IMG/VR virus record: IMGVR_UViG_3300015370_000030
Coordinates: 1-37,982 of that record
From: a virus
Taxonomy: Duplodnaviria; Caudoviricetes
Direction: 5' to 3' (one strand)
DNA: 37,982 nt
Positions within the stretch are counted from its first letter, which is position 1; the number at the start of each line of letters is the position of its first letter. Below the pieces are notes generated by a model that saw only the letters and a list, made by a program, of their open reading frames with translations, was not told where the DNA came from and did not search any database. Shown here one piece after another: positions 8,709 through 29,170 of this stretch. Made by a program: the position numbers and the translations under genes.

Positions 8709-9197
8709 ATGCAGAAAATATTGATATTTGCACTGTTACTGGTCATGTTTTTTGCATGGTCAGTGTGTTATGCCGAGAATCCACCGGCATTTTCTTCTAT
8801 TTCGGGCAGAATTCTTGAAGTAACCAGAGATAGAGAAAACAAACAGTGGACGGCAGGGTTTCAATCTGGAACAAGCCTTACAGCCGAGGTTGCGGACGCT
8901 TACGCAGTATTTAAAACAATCGATTTCAGAGATAAGGATTATATTAATATCCTGGTCAAGAATACTGATGATACAAACGGAATAACCGTTAAGATAACAG
9001 CTTATGCCTATCCTTCCGGTTCATTATCTGATATTCTTGAAGATACTGCCGGGAATACGGAAATAGCACTTGCGGCAGGGGAAACATTGGCAATGAGTAC
9101 AAGTCAGTCGTGGTCAACTCTGACGATATCGGCAAAAAATACGGTTCCGGCTTCGGCGGGCGAGATTCAGTATGAATACATCGCAAAGGAGAAATAA
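8709..9197 (+). CDS. Virion-module protein with Sec signal peptide
   Basis: GGAGG RBS; MQKILIFALLLVMFFAWSVCYA|ENP; small beta-sandwich-like mature region. Confidence 0.7.
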   Translation: MQKILIFALLLVMFFAWSVCYAENPPAFSSISGRILEVTRDRENKQWTAGFQSGTSLTAEVADAYAVFKTIDFRDKDYINILVKNTDDTNGITVKITAYAYPSGSLSDILEDTAGNTEIALAAGETLAMSTSQSWSTLTISAKNTVPASAGEIQYEYIAKEK

Positions 9198-9198
9198 T

Positions 9199-11214
9199 AT
9201 GAAAAGACAAATATTTATGCTTATTGCTGTGTTCTTACTGATATCTCCGATATTTGCGGCAGATTATACAATTCTGGACAGGATCATAGCCCTTCAGGGA
9301 GGTTCATGGACAGTCAGTTCTGTGCTGACAGGAGAAGTTGAAGTAACGCAGCCGACACATGATGATCTGAATTGCAATGCGAACAGTCAGTGGAATAATG
9401 CTGATGTTTCTGCAACAAATGGTCTTCCGGTCATGCTGTATTCAAAAAACAATATTCAACTTTCCTGTGAGGCATTATCTTATCCGAATCTTCGTACTGG
9501 AATATGGGGCGGAGCAAATATGTCAGTTGTGTCACAACCAGGGGATGGGGTTGCTAATACTGTCTACGGTCTTGTTGTGAATAGTAGACTGATCGGATAT
9601 AACGGCACAACTTGGGATAGATTGAAATCAGATACAACTTATGGACTCGATGTTGATATTACGAGACTATCTTCACTGGTGGCCGGGTCTGCTCATGCTG
9701 GCAGTTTTACAGCAGAACAGGATACGGCAGATACCTGGAAAGTAAGCCTTGCGTCAGTTCCTTCGCATGCGGTAACTAATGCTGGAACATTTGCAGTACA
9801 AGCTGCTTGTACGGGTACTTTCTGGCAGGCTACGCAGCCGGTAAGTGCGGCAGCATTACCATTACCGGCGGGCGCGGCTACATCTGCATTACAGCTTCCA
9901 GATAGTCATAACGTTACTGTAGACAATGCAGATGTTAATCCTGTCAATGTGGGAGGAATTACTTTAGAAGCAATTAAGACATCAGTTGAACTAATTGATA
10001 ATGCTATAAGCGGAAATGAAATGCAGGTTGATGTTATTACATTGCCAACCCTCGCAAACGTAACAACAGTTGCAACAGTAATGAATCTTGCTCAACAGGG
10101 AGGGGTAGCGATTTCTCTGAATACAGGAGTGAGGGATACAGGAACACAGAGGGTTACGATAGCGACTAATGATATTGTACCTACCTCTCAATCGGGAACA
10201 TGGACAGTGCAACCAGGAAATACCCCCAATACAACCGCATGGAAGGTAGACGGAAGCGCAGTTACTCAACCTGTTAGCGGAACCGTAACGGCAAATGCCG
10301 GAACAAATTTAAATACATCTGCTCTTGCGACTTCAGCACTTCAATTAGCTGATGGGCATAATGTTACCATTGATAACCTTGACGCCAATCCTGTTAATGT
10401 GGGGGGCGTAACCACTGAGGCGATAGCAACTTCTGTAGCGAGTGTAGACGGAAAGATAACTGCTTGCAACACTGGAGCAGTAGTGGTTAGTACATTACCC
10501 ACAACTCCAGCAGGAACAAATCTTATTGGGAAAGTTGGAATAGATCAGACAACTCCAGGCACGACCAACGGAGTACAGGTAAACGCAGCACTTCCGGCAG
10601 GAACGGCAAATATCGGTGATGTCGATATAGCGACTATAGCCGCTGGAGATAATAATATTGGTAATGTGGATATAGTAACTTTACCGGCACTGGTGGCAGG
10701 GACAGCGAACATAGGCGATGTTGATATAGCGAGTGCCATACCGGCAGGAACAAATCTCATAGGTAAAGTTGGTATCGATCAGACTACTCCCGGAACAACC
10801 AACGGTGTTCAAGTTAATGCGGCATTGCCAGCAGGAACAAATAACATTGGGGATGTTGATGTAATAACTTTACCCGCACTAGTAGCAGGAACAGCCAATA
10901 TAGGTGATGTTGATGTTCTGACCATGCCGAATGTAGGAATAGCAGTTCCTACAGTATATAATCTTGCACTTACAACAGCAAATACACAATACAGTCAGGC
11001 TTTTTCAAATGCTGAATCCATTACTTTTCAGAATCGTTCTGAAAGCGATATAAGATATGCGTGGGTAACAGGAAAGGTAGCGACTCCAAATGTTCCATAT
11101 ATGACGTTGAAATCTGGATATGTATTCAGTAAAGATAATATTAATATAGCGTCAGGAACCATGTATTTTGCGCATGGTGTGGGCGGTATAACCGTTGAAA
11201 TCGAGGTGTGGTAA
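9199..11214 (+). CDS. Repeat-rich fibre/appendage protein with Sec signal peptide
   Basis: Likely start ATG 9199 (AAGGAG RBS) rather than 9172; [20 protein letters not shown]|AD; many LPAGTxNIGDVD repeats; Thr/Ala/Val-rich. Confidence 0.7.
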
Positions 11215-14320: not shown

Positions 14321-15528
14321 TGAAAAGACTTTTACTATTATTTTTATTAATATTCATTTTTCAGATGTTCCTTTTTGGATCAGCAGTACAAGTAGAATCT
14401 GGAATGTCAGGTTTTCAAACATCTACAGGATTGCCATCTTCAGGATATAAATTATACACGTATGAAATAGGAACTACGACACAAAAAACAACATGGTCAG
14501 ATCGGGCAAAAGTTGTAGCTAATACCAATCCAATCATACTAGACAGCAAAGGCAGAGCAGTTATATTCGCAGACGGAATGTATGACTTTGTTTTGAAAAC
14601 GTCAGAAGATGTAACAGACCAGACATGGGAATCGGTAAATTACAGATCATTAGGAGAAAGTCTTGAACTAATAGATGGTTCAGGTGTTTCGCAGGTATAC
14701 TTTACAGCAGACGGCGGAGTAAGTTACGTTAAAGGTGGGGATTTTGGAGTAGGAACGGCAACACCGACAACAATTCTTCATATTTCAGATACTTCACCAG
14801 CAATAAGAATAAAAGACACTTCAGAGGGCATAGATATTGACATAAAACTTGCAAGTGGATATTTTGAGATAAAAACAGTTTCAGGGGTAACGGTAGAGAG
14901 TCTTTTAAAGGTTCCTGCTGCATTAGACGAAGCACCTAGCGGATTCTTGGCTACTCCTGTCGGCACTATTCAAATGTATGCTGGGGCAACTGCGCCTACT
15001 GCTTGGTTACTGTGTCAGGGGCAGGCATTAAACGCTACTGCCAATCCTAAGTATGCTCCGTTATATGCAGTTATAGGAATTACTTATGGAGGAACTGGAA
15101 TTGCTGCTTTTAATGTTCCTGACTTTCAGAATAGATACGCAAGGGGCGTAGGTACTTCAGAAAGGGGAGATACTGTTAACCAATTAACAAAACTTCCTAC
15201 AAATGCTTTTACTGATGCGGCTACTGGAATACAGTCGGCATCTCATACTCATTCTGGAACTACTTCTGGACAATCGGTAACGCATACGCATTCTATTGAT
15301 TGTGGGTCTTCCGGAACAATACCAGGATCAAATGTTGCCACGAATGCCGGAAGTGGTCAACCGATATCCACTGGCAACGCCTCGGCAGACCATACCCATA
15401 CTGTTACAACAGGAAATCAATCTGCTTCTCATACTCACACTGTAACTATAGATGGTGGCGGAGATGCAGAAACCCGCCCGAACTCAGTAGTAGTAAATTA
15501 TATTATATATACAGGAACTAAATACTAA
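14320..15528 (+). CDS. Tail fibre with virion-attachment domain, tail-collar domain and HxH repeats; N-terminal signal peptide
   Basis: GYKLYTYEIGTTT...NTNPIILDSKGRA attachment-like domain; PVGTIQMYAGATAPTAWLLCQG...LYAVIGITYGG...FNVPD collar; four HTH tripeptides; ETRPNSVVVNYII end. Confidence 0.85.
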   Translation: MKRLLLLFLLIFIFQMFLFGSAVQVESGMSGFQTSTGLPSSGYKLYTYEIGTTTQKTTWSDRAKVVANTNPIILDSKGRAVIFADGMYDFVLKTSEDVTDQTWESVNYRSLGESLELIDGSGVSQVYFTADGGVSYVKGGDFGVGTATPTTILHISDTSPAIRIKDTSEGIDIDIKLASGYFEIKTVSGVTVESLLKVPAALDEAPSGFLATPVGTIQMYAGATAPTAWLLCQGQALNATANPKYAPLYAVIGITYGGTGIAAFNVPDFQNRYARGVGTSERGDTVNQLTKLPTNAFTDAATGIQSASHTHSGTTSGQSVTHTHSIDCGSSGTIPGSNVATNAGSGQPISTGNASADHTHTVTTGNQSASHTHTVTIDGGGDAETRPNSVVVNYIIYTGTKY

Positions 15529-16943
15529 TGACATACCGAGCAATACCTCTTTTTTCAAAAACACAACAAGGAGTACCGGACATAGTAGTAACTTCAGGTA
15601 TTGCAAAAATAATAAATGCTTTCAAAAACGAATACAACTATATCGTAAAAAGAAGGGGACTGGATGTATATATTGATATTACAGGAGTTGATGAACCCGT
15701 CAGGGGAGTGTATCATTGGAAAAAACAGGATATAACAATAGCGTCTTGTAACGGAAGATTATATTTGCTCGACATAACTTTGAAAACAGCCACACTGATA
15801 GCGGGCGATTCTCTGGCGGATGGTGTTCCTGTGTTTTCCGAGAACGGAGATGGGTCTATTTTATTTATTGCAGACGGCGGAAGGCTTATAAGATGGGATG
15901 GTTCCGGCAATGCGAATTATGAACCTTCCATAACTTTCAATGTTTCCCACGTTGCCAGAATGAACAGAATCACCATAGTCAATAGAGTGGGGGATGGCAG
16001 GTGGTATTTTTCCGACACCAACGCTACAGCATTCACTCCTGGAACAGATTATTTCAACGCAGAGGCGGCCAGTGATGACATAAAAGGTCTGGTAGTGGTA
16101 AGAGAAGAAGCCTTCTTTCTCGGCACCGATACCGGGGAATACTGGTATCATGATGGAATTACATTCAAACCTAAAAAGCTCATAATACCAAGAGGAACCG
16201 AGGCGGCCAATTCTCTGTGTGTTTCAGATGATATAATCTATTTTCTGGATAGTAAGCGGCAGTTTATACAGGCTCCCGGTGCCGGACAGGAGGTTATAGT
16301 ATCGAGCAATTATCGTGATGAATTCGAGGGACTTGAAACAACAAATGATTGTATGGCGACGCCAATAAGAGTGGATGGACATTCTGCCATAAGACTGGAT
16401 TTCCCTTCCGATTCAAGAACATTCGTTTACGATATAGTATATAAGGACTGGTTCGAGTGGTCATACTGGGATACTGGCTATGGAATACACAAACAATATC
16501 TGGGCAACGGATTCTGTTATATTGATTCCGCAGGACTTACCTTGATGGGTGACAGGAGATTCAACGGGCAGATATTAGTAGAGGACAAGGACACATATCA
16601 GGATGATTCGGACGCCATTCTGGTGGCCGTTACCACCGGGCATATTGATTGGGGCGTGGCTGCAATGTATAAATATTGTTCGAGAATGTACGGATATTTC
16701 AAAAGAGGAATCGCAAACGCGGCGGTTTTGATTCCGAAAGTGATGTTTCGATGGCGGGATAACAGAAGGGGATGGAACAACAAACTTACCTTTTCACTTG
16801 GACAGACCGGCGAATATGAAATTGATGTTAATTTCGGATCTTGTGGAAGATATAAATCAAGACAGATTGAAGTATCGCACTCAGACGCCACAGAATTTGT
16901 AATGATGGGATTAGCGGAAGATAATGATCCGGAAGAAGCTTAA
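15528..16943 (+). CDS. Tail hub / packaged DNA stabilisation protein (P22 gp10-like)
   Basis: 471 aa beta-propeller-like; FLGTDTGEYW, RTFVYD...W, FGSCGRYKSRQIEV pattern; position before ejection genes. Confidence 0.75.
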   Translation: MTYRAIPLFSKTQQGVPDIVVTSGIAKIINAFKNEYNYIVKRRGLDVYIDITGVDEPVRGVYHWKKQDITIASCNGRLYLLDITLKTATLIAGDSLADGVPVFSENGDGSILFIADGGRLIRWDGSGNANYEPSITFNVSHVARMNRITIVNRVGDGRWYFSDTNATAFTPGTDYFNAEAASDDIKGLVVVREEAFFLGTDTGEYWYHDGITFKPKKLIIPRGTEAANSLCVSDDIIYFLDSKRQFIQAPGAGQEVIVSSNYRDEFEGLETTNDCMATPIRVDGHSAIRLDFPSDSRTFVYDIVYKDWFEWSYWDTGYGIHKQYLGNGFCYIDSAGLTLMGDRRFNGQILVEDKDTYQDDSDAILVAVTTGHIDWGVAAMYKYCSRMYGYFKRGIANAAVLIPKVMFRWRDNRRGWNNKLTFSLGQTGEYEIDVNFGSCGRYKSRQIEVSHSDATEFVMMGLAEDNDPEEA

Positions 16944-16945
16944 TT

Positions 16946-17374
16946 ATGGGAGGGAAATATCCAATACCGAAAGAGACGGATTCCTTCTATGTATGGCAAA
17001 AATGGAGGGAACATCTGGCTTATCCCTTTGTAGACAGAGGGAACATTGCGGCGTGGGATTTCTCCATAGGAGCAGGATTGACAGCAGACGGAGCCGAACA
17101 TACACTGGATTTATCGACTATAATTCCGGATTTATCAATATCCAGAGTGAAATTGAGTATTGCCATTCAGGATAATGCAGTAGGGACTGGTATAATTATA
17201 AAAGAAAATGGCAATGCTGATGATATAAATGCCCTCGTGAGATATACACAGGTTGCCAATCAGATAAAATATGATAATGACAGTTTTATGCTTGATGCAA
17301 ATAACTATGTTGCATATAAGATAACGGCAGGTATGGACGCTGCATACATAGCAGTACAGGGATGGTGGCCGTAA
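16946..17374 (+). CDS. Hypothetical virion protein
   Basis: 142 aa, tightly packed between the hub and GNAT-like genes. Confidence 0.6.
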   Translation: MGGKYPIPKETDSFYVWQKWREHLAYPFVDRGNIAAWDFSIGAGLTADGAEHTLDLSTIIPDLSISRVKLSIAIQDNAVGTGIIIKENGNADDINALVRYTQVANQIKYDNDSFMLDANNYVAYKITAGMDAAYIAVQGWWP

Positions 17375-17874
17375 TGATACAACGGGCAGTTTCCGCGGAT
17401 CATGCAGATAAGATAAACAGGATATTGATACATCCCGGAATATGGAACAGTATAGCAGATGATTTTTCCGGAGAACCACAGGATTATGATTGTTACGAAA
17501 TAATCCAAAAGGGTGAGGATGTCGCAATAATCCTGAGCGATTTTGAAACAATTGCATTTATAGTACACAGGGTAAATGGGATCACATGGGAGGGGCATTT
17601 CGCAATCACTCCCGAAAAAAGAAAGGTGAAATTTCTTCTCCAGGAAGCCGAAGAAGCGTTGAATTATATCTTTGAAAAAACATCCTGTAGAAAACTTATC
17701 GGTTTCATACCGGAAGATAATAAAGCGGGACTGTTGTTTCTGAGAGAATGCGGATTTAAAGTAGAAGGAAACTGTACAAAAAGCATTCTTCAAGACAGGA
17801 TTCTAAAAGATAGAGTATTAGTAGGTTTAAATAAAAAAGATTGGAGAAAGGAGGCGACAACCAATGGGAGTTAG
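17374..17874 (+). CDS. GNAT-fold protein (P22 gp14/DUF2824-like)
   Basis: Likely ATG 17374 (TAATG); WEGHFAI...CRKLIGFIPEDNKAGLLFLRECGFKVEG acetyltransferase-fold motif; usual position before ejection genes. Confidence 0.7.
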   Translation: MIQRAVSADHADKINRILIHPGIWNSIADDFSGEPQDYDCYEIIQKGEDVAIILSDFETIAFIVHRVNGITWEGHFAITPEKRKVKFLLQEAEEALNYIFEKTSCRKLIGFIPEDNKAGLLFLRECGFKVEGNCTKSILQDRILKDRVLVGLNKKDWRKEATTNGS

Positions 17875-18763
17875 TGCTTTAGTGGGGGCAACCATAGGAT
17901 CGGCAATCATAGGCGGAGTAGCGGCGCAAAGATCCAAACGGGCTCAGATTGAGGGCGCGAGAATAGGCGCACAGGCTCAGACGGCGGCATTGGGACAAGC
18001 GGGTGAAGTTATTACTGCCGCCACCGAAAAAAGGATCAGTGGGATTAGAGAAACTACAGCCGCGCAGATAGCAGTAGAAAAGCAGACCGCGGCAGAAGTT
18101 ATAAAAATGCAGAAAGAAATGTACGGCGAAATTATGAAAGAGTTCATGCCGTATAACGAAGTTGCGATGAAGGCGGTGCAGTTCATGGAAGCCGACGCTT
18201 ACGGCGGGGAAACGTCGCCCTTATATCTATGGCAGTCAGAAAAGGTTCACAAGGCTCTTGATGTAGCAATGGGGGCAGGAAGAACATATGATTCAGGGCA
18301 GGCCATATATCAACACGGAGAAGCAGAAGCGGAACTGGCGGCACGGGAAGCCGAACGCAAACGCGGAGTGGTGAGAAGCCTGGCAGAGATAGGAACAACC
18401 GGTCAGCGAGTCGGGGCACAATTGGGAACAGGCATGACGGAACAGATAACTGGGCAGGTGGCCCGAACAGGAGAGAGGATATCCGGATTGATGGGGTTGG
18501 AACAAGGTACCATAGACCGGGCGTATGCCGACCTTGCCGAATTTCAGAGCCGAAGCGCAATAGAAGGGGGACGGATAACAGCCCAGGGAGCAACAGAAGG
18601 GGGACGGATAACAGCCCAGGGAGCCAGTACGGTAGCGGGGGCCAGGTCGGGCTTTGCGGAAGATATGTATGAAACCGTCCGAACAATTCCAACAATGCTG
18701 TCTTATCAGGAGGGCTTGAAATATTCCGGTTCCAGAAGAAAGAATAGAATCTTGGGGGGTTGA
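17864..18763 (+). CDS. DNA ejection protein (P22 gp7-like)
   Basis: AAGGAGG RBS; Gly/Ala-rich hydrophobic N-terminus MGVSALVGATIGSAIIGGVAA; Q/A-rich helices; FMPY...ETSPLYLWQ. Confidence 0.65.
   Translation: MGVSALVGATIGSAIIGGVAAQRSKRAQIEGARIGAQAQTAALGQAGEVITAATEKRISGIRETTAAQIAVEKQTAAEVIKMQKEMYGEIMKEFMPYNEVAMKAVQFMEADAYGGETSPLYLWQSEKVHKALDVAMGAGRTYDSGQAIYQHGEAEAELAAREAERKRGVVRSLAEIGTTGQRVGAQLGTGMTEQITGQVARTGERISGLMGLEQGTIDRAYADLAEFQSRSAIEGGRITAQGATEGGRITAQGASTVAGARSGFAEDMYETVRTIPTMLSYQEGLKYSGSRRKNRILGG
18562..18624 (+). repeat. Exact in-frame tandem duplication (30-bp unit, 33-bp period)
   Basis: AGAAGGGGGACGGATAACAGCCCAGGGAGC at 18562-18591 and 18595-18624, encoding EGGRITAQGA twice. Confidence 0.95.
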
Positions 18764-18767
18764 GATA

Positions 18768-19778
18768 ATGGCAAACAGAATGAGTAGAATAGGACAAATA
18801 TCGACAGCGGGCACGCAGAATATGATAGGTGCATTCGGGGCCGGAATTGAAACTCAGCAACGTATGCAAACCATAGAAAGCAATCAAATACTTCTGAACG
18901 AGAAGAAAAGGGTTGAGAATTCCTCTTTTATTCTCAGGCAGAAATTGGAAGCAGCAAAACAGCAGGGATTGAGAGACGAGGACATGATGAGCCTTGCCCA
19001 CGATCATTACATGGAGAATGGTGATATAAAAATGGCCTCCGATTTGGTAGACAGCAAAATAGGGCAATTGACAAGCCTTGTGAAGGATAAGGATGAACTT
19101 ATGATTGCATATAGAGGTAGTTGGCTTCAGGAAAAATATCCGATTAAACCAACCGAAGATCCAAATAAAATCGAGGTTCAGCTTCCAGACGGCAGAAAGA
19201 TAAGGGTTGACTCTCAAAAAGTGTGGGAGAAGCTTAGACCAGACCTGGCAGAAAAGGAAGAGATAGAGTTGATAAAGCAACGAACAGAGACAGAAAAACT
19301 GAGGGGCGAAAAGCTGAAAGCCGAAACTGAATGGTGGAAAACCGGAAAACTCCAAGTAAGCCCGGAAAAGGAAGCGTTGGCAAAAAAAAGGATAAAAGAA
19401 ACAGAATTGTTAGGAACCGCAAGACCCCAAACAGAGGAACAAAAAAAATTAACCGAGGCAAGAACGAGGGAAATAGAACAGAAAATAGAGAAATACAAGA
19501 GAAGTGTTCGGGGCGGCACAGCGTTAAAACCAAATGAAATCCTTAATATAAACAAAAGAATCACCGAGATCAGGAATCTTATGGAAATGGAATCAAGGAC
19601 TTCTAATCTTATCCCTTACTATCGAAAAGAACTGGAATCATTAAGAGAAATAATTGATGATAGTGAGAAGAATAAATTCGCGAAGGAAATTCCGACAATT
19701 ACAAGTCAGGAACAATGGGAAAAATTGCCATCCGGTTCAGTATTTATGAGCGATGGCAGAAAATTCAGGAAACCATAA
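18768..19778 (+). CDS. Putative DNA ejection protein (second)
   Basis: Charged helical protein between the gp7-like and giant genes; C-terminal IPTITSQEQWEKLPSGSVFMSDGRKFRKP mini-domain. Confidence 0.55.
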   Translation: MANRMSRIGQISTAGTQNMIGAFGAGIETQQRMQTIESNQILLNEKKRVENSSFILRQKLEAAKQQGLRDEDMMSLAHDHYMENGDIKMASDLVDSKIGQLTSLVKDKDELMIAYRGSWLQEKYPIKPTEDPNKIEVQLPDGRKIRVDSQKVWEKLRPDLAEKEEIELIKQRTETEKLRGEKLKAETEWWKTGKLQVSPEKEALAKKRIKETELLGTARPQTEEQKKLTEARTREIEQKIEKYKRSVRGGTALKPNEILNINKRITEIRNLMEMESRTSNLIPYYRKELESLREIIDDSEKNKFAKEIPTITSQEQWEKLPSGSVFMSDGRKFRKP

Positions 19779-22700
19779 TGCCTAATCCTTGGGAAGAAAA
19801 ATCTATCTTAGTTGATGAAGCCCCGTGGGAATCTTCTTCTGAATTGATCGAAGATGTTTCTAATCCATGGGAAGCCAGATCAGAATTGATTGAAGATAAA
19901 CCGGAAGTCCAGACAATGACGGCAATCCCTGACATCCAGCCAACCCAGCCAACAAGACTCACAGAACCAGTTGTGGCAGCGGCAGAAATAGGGCTGATGG
20001 AACCAGATATGCCGAGCATTCCTCCTGCTTATGCTCCTGTTATGGCACCCGTGATTTTAGAAGCTGAAAGTTTTCAAAAAAAATACAAGGGAACATTGTT
20101 TGGATTTCCCGAAGAACCACCAGAAAGGCCGCCGATAGAAAGGATACCAAGTGCTATAAATGCTATGTGGGAAGGTGCAAGATTGTCCGGGTATCAAACG
20201 CTTGGGGGTGTTGGAGGAATAACAAGGGCAACCGGGGAATACGTTAAAAAGGTAATTCCCGGATTGGGACGAGAGATCCAGGGGTGGGGGAATTCCATAA
20301 ATAATTATGTGACCGAACAATATCAAAAAAATGCTCCCCAATATGAAGTCGGAGGATTAGAGGACACTCTTTTTCACGGTATTATGAGTGCCGTTAATAG
20401 CATGACATTGTTTGCGTTAAGCGGAAAAATACCAATGCCCTATCGGGTAGATATGGCACTTGAAAAAGCAATAGGCTTTCTTCCTAAATATATTTCAAAA
20501 GTCATGAGTCCCGCAACAGCAAAGTTCATCGGCGGCATTGCTACTCAACAAGCCGGAGAAAGTTATAATAGATATAGAGATGAGGGCGCAGATGAATACG
20601 AAGCTACTATAAGGGCTGTGTGGGATGGATTTGGCGAAGCGATGCCAGAAGTACTTATACCAGGAGAAATAGGATTGTTATCCGGTAGCGCTCGCGGAAT
20701 AAAAGGAATACTTAAAACAGTTGTGGCAGAAATTCCACAAGAATCAATAACTTTTTTTATGCAGAAATTAAATCAATGGCAAAGAGATTATTCCAAAGAA
20801 AAGAAACCGGCTGCAGGATTCTACGATTACGTTAAGGACCGAGTGGTTAAATACGATAAGAAAACAAAGAAACATCCATTTCTGGAAGAGTATCTGAATT
20901 TAGTTAAACAGGTTGTTATAAGCACCGGAGCGATGGGCGGAGTTAGCCATATAGCAGAAAAAATAGAAGGTATTCCTGCGGAAGAAATGAAAAGAATTCC
21001 AACAGAAGAAGAATTAAGACAAGCTGCTGAAGAATATTTTAAAACATTAGAAGAAGAGTTTTTGCCACCGCCAAGAGAAGAAGAAGTCCCTGTAGCGGGC
21101 AAGCCAGAGGGCGAGGTTGAAGCAGAAACCTCAGAATCGCTTCAAAAACAAATAGACGATAGATTTGATTATTACATGGACGAGAAGGGAATGAGTTTCA
21201 GCGAAACAAATAAACAGAAAGATGTGATAGAATTATATAAAAAAAGAGATGAAATAGATTCAAAAGATTTATCAGAAGCTAGATCAGATATAAAAAGCAG
21301 GATAGATAAAATAGATAAAGACATTGATTCAGATTATATTTTAAATGAAATTTACAACTTAAATGATGCGGGTGAACTTGGCGCATATATGGCTGTTCAA
21401 TATACTCAAAAAGCAGTAAAGAATAGAGAAGAAACGGGCAAGAAAATAGCAAAACACCTTACAAAAAAATACGGCAAAGAAAACAATCTCGACATGGACG
21501 CTGTCTTAAACCCAGCTATTTCTGGCTGGTCAAAAATTAAACAGAGAGAGTTCATAAAAGATATTGCAGATAAATCTAATAAAATACTGGACGCGGTGGA
21601 ATCTTATTTTGAGGGAAAACCGCCTGAAAAGATTCCTGCCGTTCCTGTTGAGAAGCCACAAGTAATCCCCGAACCAAAACCAACAGAACCCGCCGTTGTC
21701 CCAGAAAAAAATAAACTTGTGGAAATATTACAGTCAAAAACTAAGTATAAAGTGATGGTGGACGATTCCCTTGGAATGACATTATCGGAATACGAACAGA
21801 AGGTAGGAACAAAACAGGACAAGGTTTTTAACGCTGTGGCAAATTCTAATTCACTCACCAGAGAAATTTTTATAAGTCCCGAAATGGCAAATGCCTGTAC
21901 AGAACTTATACTCGATAAATACCCAGGCATAAATCGAAACAATTTACTGGACGAGATTTATGACGAGGCAATAAAACATGAGAATGAACATTTGAATGAT
22001 TGGGAAACTCGTTTTGAAAAAGGAGCTACTAAAGAACAACTGAGAAGCAGGGAAAGAACATTAACAAATAGATCAAATAAAAGAATAGAAAAATACGCAA
22101 AAGCAGAGTACGATAAGTTGCAACTCAAAAAAACCGTCGTTGTTCCTGAAACAGAACCAATAAAAAAAGATTATCGCAAAAGGGTAGCTGAAAAACTATT
22201 TAAAATGGCTGAATCAAAAGGATTTGATATTTCTTTTAAGGATGAATACTCTATTCCCCCAAGACTTTCAAAAAAAGATATTGTTAAAGCACTGAAGGGA
22301 ACAGGAATAACGATAGAACAATTATTATCTGATCCTCATGAAGGATATATCAGTCTGGTAAAAGGTAGTGGAAATTTCAGCGGTCAATATACTTTGTTAA
22401 AAAAGCCCCCAACAAGTGAATTAATAAAAGAAGTTTCGAAAGTTAAACCGGTTGAGGGAGTCAAAGAACCGGAGAAGGAAATCACAGTTACTTCTAAATA
22501 TCTAAGAGAATTAAAGAAATCCAGATTGAAACCCGTTACCGGACTACCCGGGAAAGCGGCAGGCGAAAGAATATTGGAAAAATCATTGAAACGATCAGAA
22601 CAAACCGGAATAGCCACAAATTTGATATTTTTCGATGTCGATAACATGAAGGCGTTAAATACCAAATATGGACATGAAGGAACAGATAAGATACTGAAAG

Positions 22701-25700
22701 AAATCGGAAAATCATTTAAAAAGAATGCCGGCCTAAGGGCGATTGCATATAATCCCTATGGAGATGAATTCCTTTGGATCAATTCTGGTTCAGAAGAACA
22801 AGCGGCAAAATTCAAAGATACGATTTTAGCTAATATCAGGAAAGATTTGATTGAGGCAGGCTATGAAGACGTAACATTATCCGGTGGTTTTGCCAGCAGA
22901 TATGAAGATAGCGGGCAGTTGGAGTCCATTATACAGGAAGCCGATGAACAGATGGCAATAGAAAAAATTGAAAAAAAGAAGATACCGTCAAGAACTCTCG
23001 AACAAGTTAGATCAGAAATAGAAGCATATAAGGCAGAACATGAAGGGAAGATACTGGATACTCATCCGCTGATAGAGGAATTAAAGACATTGCAGAAAAG
23101 AGGTGAAGGCATTACCGAACCAGGCAAAGGAATGACCAGACGAGCAGGCGAACAGAGACCAAGAGCAGAAGTCCTTTCGGGGGAAAAGAGAAGGAAACTC
23201 ACACCCAAACAAGCACTTAAAAAGGAGGTTGAGAGAATTGATGAAGAAATCACTAAAAAAGAAGCTGTGGGAGAAATCACTCCAGAAACGCGTAGACAAA
23301 TTGATATCGAAAATCAAAAAGTCAGGAAGCCTGTCCTTCCAGGCGAAGAAGAAGTAAGAGTAAATCCGCAGGAATTGTTCTTTGACCCTGATGCCCTTCA
23401 GTTTAAATTAGATACCACAGAAAAGGGAATAAGGGATAGAATAACATCGGAAATACATAAAAAAGCATCCGCAGGTGTAGTTATTGTATATGAAAGATTA
23501 GATGGAAAAACATATGTTGTTTCCGGTCATCATCGAATTGAATATGAACAAAGAATGGGAATAATTGATAGACCTGCAATCAGGTTCAAAGAATCAGACG
23601 GATTTACAGAAGAAGATATGTTAGCAGAAGGAGCATTGGATAATATCTATCAGGGAGACGGAAACGCCTATGATTGGGCAAACTTTGCCAGATATAATAA
23701 AACTGTCAAAATAGATACTGAGGGTTTGCCGCAGAAGGGGAAAGAAGCCATAGTCACAGGCAGAAATGCAACAGATAATCTTTATGAGAAGTTCACAAAA
23801 AGAGAAATTTCTTCCGCTATGGCTTATGCGATTTCAGAAGAAGTTCCAAACAATATCGAAGCGCAGAACACGGCTTTGAGATACATTGAATCAAGCAAAA
23901 CAAAAGTCACAGCGGAACAGATGCAACAAAGATTAAGAACAATAAAAATGTTCCAGGAAATGGACATAAAAGCACCTGCCGGAAAACAGATGGGACTGTT
24001 CGGTGATGAAGAAGCCCACGCAGAAATGATCGATAAGGTTGCAAAACAAGCATTAAAACATATTAAAGAATTAACAGAGAAAATAAATTCAGTCAGAGGC
24101 GCATTGAAGGACAAAAACAGAGCTAAAATTGCAGAAGAATTCGGGTTTAAAGTAGAAAACTTTGAAGAAGCAAAAAGAATGTATGATAAATTAAAAATAG
24201 ACGTAGAGAAATGGAAGAACTGGGATAAATATGAAGAATTGAGAAATCAGTTATTAAGAGAAGTTGGGATAAATAGCAATAAACTGGAAGAATCTGTAAT
24301 TGGAGTTGTGGATAAAAAAATCGTCGAAGTAGGAAAATCCGTTGATGAGTATATAGAAGAATATACACTGCCATTAGGATTATCTATCAAAGAAGTGAAA
24401 GGGAAAGAAATATCTGATGATATAAATTATCCCATTAAAGAAAAACTTGGAAGTGAATCAAAAGAAGTAGAAGAACAATGGCAGAAATCAAAGGGCATAC
24501 AATCACCCGGAATAGCCAGAAAGGCTGCGGCATGGGTCAGAAAATTATTATCGGAATTGAAACATTATCCATTGCTTGATAAAAAAACAGATGGAGCAGT
24601 AATGGAAGAGTTAAGACAGTTTGAAGCCATACCGCAATATTCAAGAGTAGCATCTTATAATGTCGTAAGAGGCATAGTAATTAAATTGGGGGCTAAAAAA
24701 TATGATGTCTTTAGCAGAAATATTATATTGCCAGATTTGCTTGCAGATATCAAGGCTGGGAAATATGAAAACAAAGAACTTCCATTTAACTATACCATCG
24801 AACAATTAGAAGCAGATTTAAATAAATACAGAAAATTTCTTGCGAATAATCCGGATATTGAGAAAGCCGTTGAGGAAAGAAATTCTTTCATGAATGATTT
24901 AAAAAAGGAACTTGTTAAAAACAAATTATTATCCAGAGAAACATTAGATAAGAAAGATTATTTTCATCATCAAGTACTAAAATATATGGACTATAAAAAT
25001 CAGAATATTAAGTTATCATCAAAGGATGTTCGATTAAAAAGCAAAGGATTCCAAAAAGCCAGAATAGGTTCCATAGAAAATTATAATACAGAATATATCG
25101 AAGCGGAAGCAGAGGTTATCGCTCAGGCCATAGGACAATTGGAAACAGTGAAACGATTGAAGAATTTAGAGAAATTGACCAATATTTATCAGGATTTAAA
25201 GGGGGAAGCCGATCTTCAAAACAAATATACAGTTCATGGCGGAAAAGATCAATATTACAAAATGCTTGAATTAAAAGCAGAGATAAAAGAACTTCAGGCC
25301 AGTCCTGACGCAAAAGAAAAAGATGTTAAGGAACATATGGCGGGATTGAAAGATCAATTAGCGGTATTAGATGTTCTTGCTCCCTTCAGGAAAAGAGTGA
25401 TAGCATCAAAGGCTGTTCTTGCCAATAAATTTGCAGCCAAAGGCGATATGCCGGACAATATGCCAGGGGAATTTGAACCGGCATTGAGAAAACTCATTAA
25501 AGATTTTGCAAGAAAACCAAAAACAATTGAAGAAGCGGAAGAAATATATGACGAAGGGGCATTGTTGGATGAAGAATTTCTTCCAGATGAAATAGAAGAA
25601 GAAGGTGCAAGATTTTTTGATTTGATAAACTGGCTGGCAAAGCAGGATCATCCGTCATCGATTCCAGCCAGGGGAGTATTCAAGGCCATCCAGGATAGAA

Positions 25701-27586
25701 AAGTATTCATAAAAGAAACATGCGGGAAAGAATTTAAAACAGTTCAAAATTATATTCCAGAAGACCATATATCCTGGAAGCCCAAACTTAGAAATTTCTA
25801 TAATGCTTTTGCAATAGATGAAAAGATAGCAATTGAAGTCTTGAATAATCTTGATATGGAGGTGGTTTTAAATCCATCTCAGATTAGGAATATAATCGCA
25901 TTGGGGAAAGCTGTTGAATGGATAATACCTAGAAGAATTGCCGAAACATTTGATCATATAAGAGACTTTTCGGAAGACTATGCTTTGGGGGCATTATCTA
26001 AGAACATAACAAATTCCTGGAAACAGTGGATACTTATGAATCCATATAGAGCATTTAAATATAACCTGAATAATATGTCTGGAGATGTTGATATTACTCT
26101 TGCTTTTGATCCCGTTATATTAACATATTCCTGGCAATCCGCAAAAGACTTATGGGATTATAATATATCTAAAAAGGGGATAACTGGGGAACTATTGAAA
26201 CTGGTAAATAAAGGAGTTCTGGATTCTGGATTAACTTCAGTCGAAATTCCGGATATATCGAAAGAAGGGTTTTTCAGGTCGTTGACGGGTAAAGGTGAGG
26301 AAAATTTCATTGAAAAATATTGGCATGGCGTAAAAAATTTTTCTGTGTGGAGAGAAAATATATTGCGATTGGCAGCCTATAGATATTTTTTAGATAAATG
26401 GAATTCTGGAGTAAAAACATATGGGGCATCTGACAAAACTGTTATTGATAACATACCTGACATCGAAGATAAGGCAGCAAGATTGGCAAGAGAATTGATC
26501 GGGGATTACGGAAATATATCCAAAGCTGGACAATATTTAAGAGAACATCATATTCCTTTTTTTTCCTGGATGGAGATCAACGCCCCAAGATATTATATGC
26601 TGATGAAAAACCTGCCCAACGAAGAAGCCGGAACGGGAAAAGCTGGAAGATATGCGAAATTAGGATTCTGGAAACTGGGAAAAGGCTACGGCAAATTAGC
26701 AATCAAAGCAACCATGTTATATGCTCTTGCTACTTTATGGAACCTCTCTGCATTTCCAGAAGAAGAAGAGAAATTAAGAAGAGGGCGACGAGAATTACAT
26801 TTGATTCTACCTAATTTAAAAACATTATTTCAAAAAGGAAAATGGTCGGCACTGGCAGACGATGGTACCATTAAATCTGTACGATTTCAAGGTGCGCTTT
26901 CTGATGCATTGAACTGGTTTGCTTTAGAAGACCTGCCGTATGATATAGCCGATGTCGTAAGAGGAAAAACAACAATAAAAAAGAAATTATACGAAGCCGC
27001 TATGGCGCCAGTAAATAAAATTGTAACATCTGTAAATCCTATCCACAAAACACTTTTATATGAAATGTGGGCTAAAAAATCTTTATATCCTGACATAACT
27101 CGTCCTCGTCCTATCAGGGATGTACCCGAATATCTTATGAAAATAGTATCGTTGGATAAAATATATAATTATTTTGCAGGAAAACCTACTCGTGGGTGGG
27201 AAAATGATGTAGCTAATATTTTTACATACACAACTGACCCGGGTGAGACATCCTATTTCACAATAAGGCAGATCGGAGCTGAATTTTTAGAAAAAAAGGG
27301 ATTTGAATATCCTTCGATAACACCAGCGAAACGATCAAATGCACTATATTATTATAGACAAGCAATAAGATTTAAAGATGATAAAGCTGCCGACAGATTC
27401 AAAAAGGAATACTATAAATTAGGAGGCACAGACAAGGGTATGGAAAGCAGCATATCAAAAGCGGCGCCATTGAATTTCATTCCAACAAGATATAAAGAAG
27501 AATTTAATAAATCACTCGATGGAACAGAATTAGATATTCTGAAAGAAGCGGAACATTGGTATAAAACATTTTATAAAGGAAAGTAA
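19778..27586 (+). CDS. Giant multidomain (polyvalent) ejection-type protein with HExxH, GGDEF-like and ParB-like domains
   Basis: Likely ATG 19778 (TAATG overlap), about 2600 aa; HENEH at 21977-21991; FDVDNMKALNTKYGHEGTD...YGDEF (YGDEF at 22757-22771); TYVVSGHHR (SGHHR at 23522-23536); C-terminal ARELIGDY...IPFFSW region typical of large internal virion proteins. Confidence 0.85.
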   Translation: MPNPWEEKSILVDEAPWESSSELIEDVSNPWEARSELIEDKPEVQTMTAIPDIQPTQPTRLTEPVVAAAEIGLMEPDMPSIPPAYAPVMAPVILEAESFQKKYKGTLFGFPEEPPERPPIERIPSAINAMWEGARLSGYQTLGGVGGITRATGEYVKKVIPGLGREIQGWGNSINNYVTEQYQKNAPQYEVGGLEDTLFHGIMSAVNSMTLFALSGKIPMPYRVDMALEKAIGFLPKYISKVMSPATAKFIGGIATQQAGESYNRYRDEGADEYEATIRAVWDGFGEAMPEVLIPGEIGLLSGSARGIKGILKTVVAEIPQESITFFMQKLNQWQRDYSKEKKPAAGFYDYVKDRVVKYDKKTKKHPFLEEYLNLVKQVVISTGAMGGVSHIAEKIEGIPAEEMKRIPTEEELRQAAEEYFKTLEEEFLPPPREEEVPVAGKPEGEVEAETSESLQKQIDDRFDYYMDEKGMSFSETNKQKDVIELYKKRDEIDSKDLSEARSDIKSRIDKIDKDIDSDYILNEIYNLNDAGELGAYMAVQYTQKAVKNREETGKKIAKHLTKKYGKENNLDMDAVLNPAISGWSKIKQREFIKDIADKSNKILDAVESYFEGKPPEKIPAVPVEKPQVIPEPKPTEPAVVPEKNKLVEILQSKTKYKVMVDDSLGMTLSEYEQKVGTKQDKVFNAVANSNSLTREIFISPEMANACTELILDKYPGINRNNLLDEIYDEAIKHENEHLNDWETRFEKGATKEQLRSRERTLTNRSNKRIEKYAKAEYDKLQLKKTVVVPETEPIKKDYRKRVAEKLFKMAESKGFDISFKDEYSIPPRLSKKDIVKALKGTGITIEQLLSDPHEGYISLVKGSGNFSGQYTLLKKPPTSELIKEVSKVKPVEGVKEPEKEITVTSKYLRELKKSRLKPVTGLPGKAAGERILEKSLKRSEQTGIATNLIFFDVDNMKALNTKYGHEGTDKILKEIGKSFKKNAGLRAIAYNPYGDEFLWINSGSEEQAAKFKDTILANIRKDLIEAGYEDVTLSGGFASRYEDSGQLESIIQEADEQMAIEKIEKKKIPSRTLEQVRSEIEAYKAEHEGKILDTHPLIEELKTLQKRGEGITEPGKGMTRRAGEQRPRAEVLSGEKRRKLTPKQALKKEVERIDEEITKKEAVGEITPETRRQIDIENQKVRKPVLPGEEEVRVNPQELFFDPDALQFKLDTTEKGIRDRITSEIHKKASAGVVIVYERLDGKTYVVSGHHRIEYEQRMGIIDRPAIRFKESDGFTEEDMLAEGALDNIYQGDGNAYDWANFARYNKTVKIDTEGLPQKGKEAIVTGRNATDNLYEKFTKREISSAMAYAISEEVPNNIEAQNTALRYIESSKTKVTAEQMQQRLRTIKMFQEMDIKAPAGKQMGLFGDEEAHAEMIDKVAKQALKHIKELTEKINSVRGALKDKNRAKIAEEFGFKVENFEEAKRMYDKLKIDVEKWKNWDKYEELRNQLLREVGINSNKLEESVIGVVDKKIVEVGKSVDEYIEEYTLPLGLSIKEVKGKEISDDINYPIKEKLGSESKEVEEQWQKSKGIQSPGIARKAAAWVRKLLSELKHYPLLDKKTDGAVMEELRQFEAIPQYSRVASYNVVRGIVIKLGAKKYDVFSRNIILPDLLADIKAGKYENKELPFNYTIEQLEADLNKYRKFLANNPDIEKAVEERNSFMNDLKKELVKNKLLSRETLDKKDYFHHQVLKYMDYKNQNIKLSSKDVRLKSKGFQKARIGSIENYNTEYIEAEAEVIAQAIGQLETVKRLKNLEKLTNIYQDLKGEADLQNKYTVHGGKDQYYKMLELKAEIKELQASPDAKEKDVKEHMAGLKDQLAVLDVLAPFRKRVIASKAVLANKFAAKGDMPDNMPGEFEPALRKLIKDFARKPKTIEEAEEIYDEGALLDEEFLPDEIEEEGARFFDLINWLAKQDHPSSIPARGVFKAIQDRKVFIKETCGKEFKTVQNYIPEDHISWKPKLRNFYNAFAIDEKIAIEVLNNLDMEVVLNPSQIRNIIALGKAVEWIIPRRIAETFDHIRDFSEDYALGALSKNITNSWKQWILMNPYRAFKYNLNNMSGDVDITLAFDPVILTYSWQSAKDLWDYNISKKGITGELLKLVNKGVLDSGLTSVEIPDISKEGFFRSLTGKGEENFIEKYWHGVKNFSVWRENILRLAAYRYFLDKWNSGVKTYGASDKTVIDNIPDIEDKAARLARELIGDYGNISKAGQYLREHHIPFFSWMEINAPRYYMLMKNLPNEEAGTGKAGRYAKLGFWKLGKGYGKLAIKATMLYALATLWNLSAFPEEEEKLRRGRRELHLILPNLKTLFQKGKWSALADDGTIKSVRFQGALSDALNWFALEDLPYDIADVVRGKTTIKKKLYEAAMAPVNKIVTSVNPIHKTLLYEMWAKKSLYPDITRPRPIRDVPEYLMKIVSLDKIYNYFAGKPTRGWENDVANIFTYTTDPGETSYFTIRQIGAEFLEKKGFEYPSITPAKRSNALYYYRQAIRFKDDKAADRFKKEYYKLGGTDKGMESSISKAAPLNFIPTRYKEEFNKSLDGTELDILKEAEHWYKTFYKGK

Positions 27587-27587
27587 C

Positions 27588-27848
27588 ATGAACCAGGGAA
27601 TAACAATATCAGCACCGGTGCTGGCAATTATTATATGCGTCGTTGGTTTATCAATTCCAGTTATTGTGGCTATCATTCAGAAGAAGTCGAAGTATGTTTC
27701 AAAAGATATATTTGATTTGAGTCTTGGCTATATTAAGGAATCTCTTACAGACATCAAGAAATCAATGGAATCAATGAACAAGAAAATGGACAGGCATATT
27801 CAGACCAGTCATGTCAGTTTGTGTGAATTTGAAGAGGACGAGAAATGA
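27588..27848 (+). CDS. Putative holin/membrane protein
   Basis: One N-terminal TM segment followed by a coiled coil; directly upstream of and overlapping the endolysin. Confidence 0.55.
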   Translation: MNQGITISAPVLAIIICVVGLSIPVIVAIIQKKSKYVSKDIFDLSLGYIKESLTDIKKSMESMNKKMDRHIQTSHVSLCEFEEDEK

Positions 27849-28441
27849 TTAATACTCCGGAAAGGCTTACCACAATGATAAACTATCCGAAAATTATATT
27901 ATTTCCCGGTCATTCTCCTGAATTGCAGGGGGCGGCTGGGAGTAATCTGCGGGAACACGGGCTTGCCGTTGGTTTGTGCTATCTTATCGAAGAATTATTG
28001 AAACAATCAAATATTCCTGTAGAGTTCAATATCGTGCATGGCAAAACGGTTATTGAATATATCGAAAACAGAATCAATATTATAAAAGAAATATATGCGC
28101 ATGATCAGAACCTGCTTGGAATAGAAGTACATTTCGATTGCAGTACAAATATCGAAGCAAAAGGCGGGCATATAATATATTTTCCTGGAGACGAGAAAGC
28201 AAAACGTCTTGCTGTCCTGATTCAAAAAAGGCTTGTTAAAATTTTCCCGGGGAGAAGTGAACAAGTTGTTGAACGGCGAGACCTGGGCTGGCTTGCCCGA
28301 TCACCATGTCCTTCTATTCTGATTGAAGTTTGTTTTATCTCCCATTCTCCTGATATCCACAATTTTTTAAGAAAAAGAACAGTAGTTGCAGATAAAATAG
28401 TTGCGGGGATCATAGAGTATATTAAGGAAAAAAATGAATGA
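27845..28441 (+). CDS. Endolysin, N-acetylmuramoyl-L-alanine amidase (Amidase_3)
   Basis: IILFPGH...LREH, IEVHFD, PSILIEVCFISH zinc/catalytic motifs. Confidence 0.9.
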   Translation: MINTPERLTTMINYPKIILFPGHSPELQGAAGSNLREHGLAVGLCYLIEELLKQSNIPVEFNIVHGKTVIEYIENRINIIKEIYAHDQNLLGIEVHFDCSTNIEAKGGHIIYFPGDEKAKRLAVLIQKRLVKIFPGRSEQVVERRDLGWLARSPCPSILIEVCFISHSPDIHNFLRKRTVVADKIVAGIIEYIKEKNE

Positions 28442-28553
28442 ACTTATATTCTATTTTTTTATAGTCCCGATGTCATATCTTTATAATTACTGGATGTACT
28501 GGGTTCCGGTATTGGTGCTGATATTGGTAATCTGGATGGGTAGGAGGAAATGA
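28434..28553 (+). CDS. Small hydrophobic membrane protein, 39 aa (not in ORF track)
   Basis: MNELIFYFFIVPMSYLYNYWMYWVPVLVLILVIWMGRRK; AAGGA RBS; overlaps the endolysin stop and joins the next gene by ATGA. Confidence 0.6.
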   Translation: MNELIFYFFIVPMSYLYNYWMYWVPVLVLILVIWMGRRK

Positions 28554-29170
28554 AATGTGGCTTGCCATGTGAAATATTTTCTCGTATAACAGGATTCTAT
28601 ACTGCCACACATCAATGGAATCCCTCGAAACAGGAAGAGTTCAAGGAAAGGAAAACTTATGACATGACACATTTCAGCACAACGATCCCGAAACATGAAT
28701 TGAAAACAGCAGAAGAACTGGAAGCTGAAAGGATCAGTACGGGAAAGGAATACTGGGCAAGGATGGGAGATAATGTTAATTGCGAGGATATCGGCGCACA
28801 AACGAGATTGCAGAATGAAGAAAGAATAAAAATAACAGATATAAAGATATCTGATAAAAAAGGAGTGAGAATTGATATGGGTTTCATGGATAATTTTATT
28901 ATGAAAATGATTATGGGGAAATTGAAAGATCCAAAATTCCTGGCTACAAATGCTTATCATATTGTGGCTCTGCTGGATAATTTCATTGATACTGAAGAAG
29001 AATGGGAAGCAATTGCAAAATATATCAGGGATGGTATTGAGGCAATTATAGGAGGTGATATCCCGTTATTTGACGATGCCGATGAAATTAAAGCATTAGC
29101 AAAAATAATCAGATGGCTTCACCTGAAACTTGAAATAATTGAACAGAAGTTACTGGAAAAAAGTAAATGA
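28550..29170 (+). CDS. Protein starting with an NrdD C-terminal glycyl-radical-like peptide, plus unrelated helical C-terminal part
   Basis: AGGAGG RBS; CEIFSRITGFYTATHQWNPSKQEEFKERKTYD matches the class III RNR C-terminal pattern; possible internal start at 28877. Confidence 0.7.
   Translation: MKCGLPCEIFSRITGFYTATHQWNPSKQEEFKERKTYDMTHFSTTIPKHELKTAEELEAERISTGKEYWARMGDNVNCEDIGAQTRLQNEERIKITDIKISDKKGVRIDMGFMDNFIMKMIMGKLKDPKFLATNAYHIVALLDNFIDTEEEWEAIAKYIRDGIEAIIGGDIPLFDDADEIKALAKIIRWLHLKLEIIEQKLLEKSK

What the first reader, a model, noticed from the sequence alone, without database searches (positions are those of the whole stretch)
22520..22980. GGDEF (diguanylate cyclase-like) domain embedded in the giant ejection-type virion protein
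Seen: PVTGLPGK...LIFFDVDNMKALNTKYGHEGTDKILKEIG...AYNPYGDEFLWI...VTLSGGFA...IIQEADEQMAIEK, which matches the GGDEF fold along its whole length. Known: canonical cyclases use DxDxFKxxNDxxGHxxGD and RxGG[DE]EF. Here the metal-binding Asp, the Lys, the guanine-reading Asn and Asp (PleD N335/D344 equivalents) and the GDEF residues are retained. The first Gly is Tyr, the preceding Arg is Asn, and there is no RxxD inhibitory site. Inference: the gene occupies the ejection-protein slot, so the phage may inject a ready-made, feedback-insensitive c-di-GMP synthase (or a GTP-binding decoy that poisons host cyclases). That could rewire motility, receptor display, superinfection or nucleotide-signal immunity from the first minute of infection. 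Oligomerisation of the ejection protein could supply the dimer a cyclase needs.
Basis: partly seen in the sequence, partly recalled or inferred. Interest (0 to 1): 0.9.

Follow-up and report, generated by a model that had tools for sequence, protein, structure and literature searches.

The report
Phage injected-protein cyclase with rebuilt interface
A giant protein of an uncultured short-tailed phage, likely injected into the host with the DNA, carries the bacterial enzyme domain that makes the signal c-di-GMP with its GTP- and metal-binding residues intact but its usual pairing surface replaced, so it is predicted either to make the signal in an unusual way or only to bind GTP; such phage fusions were catalogued by computer in 2017.

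Summary
Residues 940-1086 of a 2623-aa ORF (19715-27586, +) are a full GGDEF domain (Pfam 65 bits, cut-off 23.8; the top Foldseek hits are GGDEF domains). The protein is a phage polyvalent protein (Iyer 2017): HExxH metallopeptidase-like segment, GGDEF, ParB-fold domain and LPD38/39-like C-terminal chassis, ending a P22-like virion module. Iyer 2017 already reported GGDEF domains in such proteins and proposed interference with host nucleotide signalling; this scan has met the theme on at least 8 other findings. New here: the domain and three relatives (38-53% identical, on unrelated chassis) form a small N-x-[YH]-G-D-E-[FY] subfamily. It keeps 6-7 of 7 GTP/metal residues but only 0-2 of 7 hinge and cross-dimer residues (4 of 347 background domains do so), and conserves its own alpha0 surface. 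Best reading: a likely injected cyclase with a rebuilt dimer contact (about 0.45); rival: a GTP-binding or GTP-hydrolysing module that makes no c-di-GMP (about 0.3). No activity or virion presence is shown. A new variant of a known kind.

The parts
19715..27586 (+). Giant polyvalent, ejection-type protein, 2623 aa (the database call starts at Met22, nt 19778, 2602 aa)
22490..22984 (+). GGDEF module (aa 926-1090) with its short conserved leader helix; Pfam match 22532-22975; N-P-Y-G-D-E-F hairpin at 22751-22771
21782..22084 (+). Zincin-like metallopeptidase (MPTase) candidate, aa about 690-790: HENEH at 21977-21991 with Asp three residues later; a lead, not confirmed by Pfam
   Evidence: motif; Atlas hits at 0.89-0.90 incl. 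SprT-like and Peptidase_M78 (24% of members); motif description in PMC5512222 section 8; no Pfam match
23330..24304 (+). ParB/Srx-fold domain (GHHR at 23525-23536) and following helices, aa 1206-1530; shared with LPD38 polyvalent proteins and with a portal fusion (phrog_21)
   Evidence: Noc/ParB structures, E 3.5e-6
24305..27583 (+). Conserved C-terminal chassis, aa 1531-2623, LPD38/LPD39-like by language-model features; shared by 18 database proteins and 72 viral loci
15528..16943 (+). Head-closure / tail-hub gene (phrog_578)
17362..17874 (+). GNAT-like 'head morphogenesis' gene (phrog_651), in the slot of P22 gp14 (slot recalled)
17864..18763 (+). Gly/Ala/Gln-rich 299-aa protein, probable first ejection protein (inferred from slot and composition; no PHROG or Pfam match)
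18768..19778 (+). 336-aa protein, probable second ejection protein (inferred from slot; no match)
27588..28441 (+). Small protein with a hydrophobic N-terminus (holin-like, inferred) and Amidase_3 endolysin closing the module

Best explanation
The stretch is a complete GGDEF domain inside a phage polyvalent protein that is likely packed in the head and likely injected with the DNA, and it is predicted to work as a non-canonical dinucleotide cyclase that binds GTP and Mg with an intact half-site but would pair through a rebuilt, subfamily-specific surface to make c-di-GMP early in infection. Shown: fold, residues, domain architecture, gene order, mobility of the module between chassis. Inferred: packaging and injection (slot; Iyer 2017), possible release by the neighbouring HExxH peptidase, dimer formation through the conserved leader helix and alpha0 or through oligomers of the chassis, product identity, and any effect on host signalling or rival phages.
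For: All 7 single-protomer residues named for DgcR (D174, K179, N182, D191, E217, E218, K289; PMC8041772 sections 6 and 10) are kept in the query and P0035, and 6 of 7 in P0036 and P0184, at 38-53% identity between lineages; these include the Lys placed over the incoming substrate's alpha-phosphate, which points to chemistry, not only binding. Changes are shared by all four members, so they are selected, not decay: 50 of 165 positions invariant, alpha0 11 of 22 with 6 subfamily-specific residues; alpha0 and the DxLT turn form the close contact in an activated cyclase dimer (PMC6005682 passage). His, found in two members, gave an active enzyme in VCA0965. One cross-dimer pair (H987, D1077) survives in the query. 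Context: portal, capsid, adaptor, collar fibre, hub, GNAT-like gene, two unknowns, giant, lysis; relatives L133 and L182 have phrog_598 'DNA ejection' two and three genes upstream of the giant. The chassis took up GGDEF domains of other lineages too: 3 of 72 viral loci (39 cut at the 5' end) and 2 of 18 database proteins.
Against: Only 2 of 7 hinge and cross-dimer residues are canonical in the query and 0-1 in its relatives; 4 of 347 ungapped background domains with 6 or more catalytic residues are that low. In VCA0965 only Ala, Gly, Met and His at the first motif position were active out of 20 residues, so Tyr was not; the authors expect large residues there to clash with product, while warning that each enzyme has its own rules. 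No extended coiled coil precedes the domain: the sequence is Pro/Glu/Lys-rich up to a 12-residue helix. The guanine-reading Asp is Asn in two members. No ejection-protein profile matches the window's own genes, and only 1 of 47 upstream genes of 19 other loci matched 'DNA ejection'. No virion, host or assay exists.
Confidence: 0.45

Rival explanations
1. The domain is a single-protomer GTP-Mg module that makes no cyclic dinucleotide: a GTP sensor gating a neighbour (ParB-fold or peptidase domain), a slow NTP hydrolase, or a decoy that docks on host cyclases through alpha0 and forms dead heterodimers.
For: Selective loss of cross-dimer residues with the GTP pocket kept; bulky Tyr/His on the hairpin; GGDEF domains that only bind GTP or c-di-GMP are known (PMC13725321 passage) and YybT's has ATPase activity (title in reference lists).
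Against: The transition-state Lys and both hairpin acids are invariant in 4 of 4; neighbours differ between members (ParB-fold here, RadC in P0035, no Pfam neighbour in P0036), so there is no fixed partner to gate.
Confidence: 0.3
2. It is an active cyclase with relaxed base choice or an incomplete reaction, making cGAMP, c-di-AMP or linear dinucleotides that jam or mimic nucleotide-based immunity.
For: The cross-dimer Arg that favours guanine is Lys or Ala in all four; enzymes with Tyr, Ser, Ala or Gln there made mostly cGAMP among Hypr enzymes (PMC6456294 passage); two members have Asn for the guanine-reading Asp; all have Asp in the motif centre, as Hypr enzymes do. GGDEF-related OptS makes 2',3'-c-di-AMP without the motif (PMC12657218 passages).
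Against: The query keeps Asp991; in GacA an Asp at this site drives GTP specificity. The Hypr signature Ser/Thr is absent in 4 of 4. No mCpol match in Pfam.
Confidence: 0.15
3. The domain is a decaying passenger, or the protein is not injected and the domain acts late or in a lysogen.
For: GGDEF is present in few chassis relatives (3 of 72 loci); virion location is inferred only.
Against: Catalytic residues are invariant across 38-53% identity; the gene lies in the middle of the virion-lysis operon.
Confidence: 0.1

Closest known systems
GGDEF domains in phage and prophage polyvalent proteins (Iyer, Burroughs, Anand, de Souza, Aravind 2017, PMC5512222; example Acetonema longum WP_004096050.1)
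   Same: Giant late-gene protein joining unrelated enzymes (MPTase-like, GGDEF, ParB-fold, LPD38-like); same proposed role of interfering with host nucleotide signalling or rival elements; GGDEF 'not very widespread'.
   Different: The text I read gives no residue-level analysis; the N-x-[YH]-GDE subfamily with lost hinge and cross-dimer residues is not mentioned in the passages and sections read. The FTP supplement was not seen.
Canonical diguanylate cyclases (DgcR, PleD, DosC, T. maritima GGDEF)
   Same: Fold and all seven GTP/metal residues.
   Different: No sensor or long coiled coil; DxLT Asp, capping Asn, cross-dimer Arg, Asp-Tyr pair, hairpin Arg and first Gly are replaced; no RxxD.
Non-canonical active cyclases: VCA0965 (AGDEF, PMC3974145), Hypr GacA (PMC6456294)
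   Same: Altered first motif residue or altered cross-dimer Arg.
   Different: Tyr is outside the set active in VCA0965; no Hypr Ser/Thr.
YIP peptides of PB1-like phages (PMC8085984)
   Same: A phage raises host c-di-GMP, showing that phages target this pathway.
   Different: YIP activates a host cyclase; it is not an enzyme and not described as injected in what I read.

Membership tests
GGDEF domain (PF00990) | Profile match over the curated cut-off along the whole domain | tested here: met
   65 bits vs 23.8, profile 5-157 of 161; TIGR00254 60 vs 37.4
GGDEF domain (PF00990) | GGDEF palm fold | tested here: met
   AF2 model and Foldseek, E 3e-7, TM about 0.6
Canonical (class I) diguanylate cyclase | Metal, guanine, transition-state and gamma-phosphate residues | tested here: met
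   7 of 7
Canonical (class I) diguanylate cyclase | RxGG[DE]EF hairpin | tested here: not met
   N-P-Y-G-D-E-F; Arg in 381 and Gly in 344 of 386 background rows
Canonical (class I) diguanylate cyclase | DxLT wide turn and conserved cross-dimer residues | tested here: not met
   2 of 7
Canonical (class I) diguanylate cyclase | Makes c-di-GMP from GTP as a dimer | not testable with these tools
   needs an assay
Hypr GGDEF (cGAMP synthase) | Ser/Thr in place of the guanine-reading Asp | tested here: not met
   D991; Asp, Asn, Asn in relatives
Phage polyvalent protein (Iyer 2017) | Several unrelated enzymatic domains in one large chain | tested here: met
   GGDEF and ParB fold confirmed; relatives swap helicase, methylase, RadC and other Pfam domains on the same chassis
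Phage polyvalent protein (Iyer 2017) | Encoded among late virion genes | tested here: met
Phage polyvalent protein (Iyer 2017) | Zincin-like MPTase hub domain | tested here: inconclusive
   HExxH plus Asp at +3; Atlas 0.89-0.90; no Pfam match
Phage polyvalent protein (Iyer 2017) | LPD-type C-terminal domain | tested here: inconclusive
   Atlas 0.95-0.98 to viral clusters, 15 of 30 hits with LPD38; no Pfam LPD38 match
DdrB-like ParB family | Match to the DdrB-ParB family rather than ParB/Srx in general | tested here: inconclusive
   ParB/Srx fold shown; no Pfam ParB-family match at E 0.5
Ejection (internal virion) protein | Present in virions and transferred to the host | not testable with these tools
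   slot and relatives only

The most novel reading that the evidence does not exclude
A phage-restricted GGDEF subfamily has rebuilt its dimer face and is delivered from the virion either as a cyclase with a new pairing mode or altered product, or as a GTP-loaded decoy that docks on host diguanylate cyclases and silences them: a virion-borne enzyme that resets host second-messenger levels before any phage gene is expressed.
Probability: 0.3. Interest if true: 0.7.

Novelty: new variant of a known kind. Interest (0 to 1): 0.4.

Why it matters
Injected GGDEF domains were predicted in 2017 and I found no bench test in the held library. A working example would show that phages bring their own second-messenger enzyme into the cell at the moment of infection. 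This subfamily also offers a natural test of which dimer-face residues a GGDEF cyclase needs, because it keeps the active half-site and changes nearly all the rest. The limits: four sequences, no cultured phage, no known host, and a theme that recurs often.

Tried and rejected
Homodimer prediction with GTP and Mg (alignment A2, 2 copies): no answer, score 0.01 against a mark of 0.42; no evidence either way. Searches for more subfamily members: whole-length homolog search by the GGDEF region found only the query (1 of 416 candidates); viral scan with the single domain found none of 29 stretches; profile scans of viral contigs (51 loci) and metagenomes (best 80 of 499; 30 of 64 parts scanned) gave only matches of 25-38% identity, which I took as ordinary GGDEF domains without reading each; a degenerate DNA pattern gave 0 viral and 8 genome matches, 0 of 8 GGDEF; annotated phages gave 31 records, none above 40%. 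Frameshift or error: rejected (open frame, motif shared). Composition as a sign of recent capture: GC 0.378 vs 0.33-0.42 in other parts, no signal. Tree: quick tree only; the four group at SH-aLRT 92, L134's N-I-H-G-D-E-H domain is on a very long branch and unplaced. Literature searches for motif variants were uninformative: one search was swamped by a fish peptide (20 of 48 listed), searches found nothing relevant; the one 'phage-encoded diguanylate' hit refers to YIP. mCpol or Cas10 identity: no Pfam match. Earlier scan notes by sequence, motif words and place: none.
Full report
Observation. The finding lies in a 2623-aa ORF at 19715-27586 on the + strand; the database gene call starts at Met22. 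Residues 940-1086 match Pfam GGDEF at 65 bits against a cut-off of 23.8, over profile positions 5-157 of 161, TIGR00254 at 60 bits and 42 PDB sequences. A model without alignment (pLDDT 66.6) retrieves GGDEF structures in all rows shown. It is the only GGDEF match in this 37,982-base virus record, estimated 56% complete.

Context. Gene order is terminase-like gene, P22-like portal, capsid, adaptor-like gene, collar fibre, head-closure gene (phrog_578), GNAT-like gene (phrog_651), two genes of 299 and 336 aa without a match, the giant, a holin-like gene and an amidase. That this is the P22-type ejection block is recalled knowledge. Relatives help a little: of 20 viral loci with a complete giant and upstream DNA, L133 and L182 carry phrog_598 'DNA ejection' among the three upstream genes; most of the 47 genes scanned had no match. 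Packaging and injection stay inferred.

Architecture. Besides GGDEF the giant has an HExxH motif at aa 755-759 with Asp three residues on, as Iyer describe for a phage MPTase clade (Atlas lead only; no Pfam match); a ParB/Srx-fold domain from aa 1206 (GHHR motif; Foldseek to Noc and ParB, E 3.5e-6); and a C-terminal chassis that resembles LPD38/39 clusters by features. The chassis is shared by 18 database proteins that carry varying helicase, methylase, RadC and other Pfam domains and by 72 viral loci. GGDEF occurs in 2 of the 18 (P0004; P0005 below the cut-off; I rescanned 6 of the 18 and relied on precomputed domains for the rest) and in 3 of the 72 (39 are cut at the 5' end, so a lower bound), with other motifs (KGDEL, GGDEM, GGDEF, HGDEH). 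So GGDEF is an optional cargo on this chassis.

The subfamily. Among 1.84 billion representatives the two clear relatives are P0035 (2765 aa, 53%) and P0036 (1845 aa, 45%); a profile search added P0184 (1748 aa). They share essentially only the GGDEF module with the query, so the module moves between giant proteins. Their contigs could not be fetched; that they are phage proteins is inferred from architecture. The four group in a quick tree at SH-aLRT 92.

Residues. I mapped DgcR's named residues (PMC8041772, sections 6 and 10) by alignment column and motif spacing; DgcR's sequence itself was not fetched, but D139 to E218 fit a constant offset of 800. The seven single-protomer residues (D974, K979, N982, D991, D1017, E1018, K1084) are all kept in the query and P0035, six in P0036 and P0184 (Asp991 is Asn). 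Of seven hinge and cross-dimer residues (DgcR D139, N146, R147, D183, H187, D282, Y286) the query keeps 2, the others 1, 0 and 0. In a background of 386 GGDEF domains drawn from my own hits (biased towards the query), 365 were ungapped at these sites, 347 kept 6 or more catalytic residues, and 4 of those kept 2 or fewer dimer residues. The Gly before D991, the hairpin Arg and the first motif Gly are changed in 4 of 4. Yet 50 of 165 positions are invariant, with alpha0 the richest in subfamily-specific residues (11 of 22 invariant, 6 specific). RxxD is missing in 4 of 4, as in 188 of 386 background rows.

Mechanism. Two facts pull apart. The intact half-site, including the Lys placed over the incoming substrate, argues for chemistry; a conserved alpha0, which forms the close contact in an activated cyclase dimer (PMC6005682 passage), argues for a rebuilt contact. 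Against this, in VCA0965 only Ala, Gly, Met and His were active at the first motif position (PMC3974145 abstract and passages; figure not seen), so Tyr failed there while His, found in two members, worked; and no long coiled coil precedes the domain. I give 0.45 to an injected non-canonical cyclase making c-di-GMP, 0.3 to a GTP binder, hydrolase or decoy, 0.15 to another nucleotide product (the guanine-favouring cross-dimer Arg is Lys or Ala; PMC6456294 passages), 0.1 to a passenger or a non-injected role.

Prior work. Iyer et al. 2017 (PMC5512222; abstract, passages, sections 8 and 22 read) list GGDEF among polyvalent-protein domains and propose interference with host nucleotide signalling or action against rival elements. 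Their FTP supplement was not seen and may hold members of this subfamily. YIP peptides (PMC8085984; abstract and discussion) show a phage raising c-di-GMP through a host enzyme. Also seen as passages: PMC7824862, PMC13725321 (plus section 14), PMC12657218, PMC11461919, PMC10396304. Searches found no experimental test of a virion-borne GGDEF; the library lacks most subscription papers. Earlier notes of this scan list eight similar findings in other genomes; none matched this domain by sequence.

Verdict. Real domain, known design, unusual subfamily. New variant of a known kind; interest 0.4.

Noticed in passing
window 23339-24154 (aa 1209-1480 of the giant): The ParB-fold region matches the C-terminal extension of a portal-protein PHROG (phrog_21, profile 1013-1285 of 1362), so the same domain rides on portal fusions.
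   Followed up: partly
window 28550-29170: A 206-aa ORF after the endolysin starts with a 36-residue match to the C-terminal zinc-ribbon-like end of anaerobic ribonucleotide reductase NrdD (Pfam 29.7 bits) fused to an unknown domain.
   Followed up: no
window 1191-2861: Divergent terminase-like protein with no Pfam or NCBIfam match and only a weak PHROG terminase match (E 0.008).
   Followed up: no
L134:3701-11851: Chassis relative with a very divergent GGDEF domain (N-I-H-G-D-E-H hairpin), resembling the subfamily's N-x-H pattern but unplaced in the tree.
   Followed up: partly
P0004 aa 410-545; P0005 aa 671-770; L200, L151 giants: The same chassis carries GGDEF domains of other lineages (KGDEL, GGDEM, GGDEF motifs); P0005 lacks the catalytic Lys. 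Suggests repeated capture.
   Followed up: partly
window 25220-25744 (aa 1836-2010): A 175-aa insert inside the chassis, absent from P0003-P0007 but covered by P0002, P0008, P0009; no Pfam match.
   Followed up: no
window 9172-11214: 680-aa repeat-rich structural protein with an apparent N-terminal signal or membrane segment and internal repeats.
   Followed up: no
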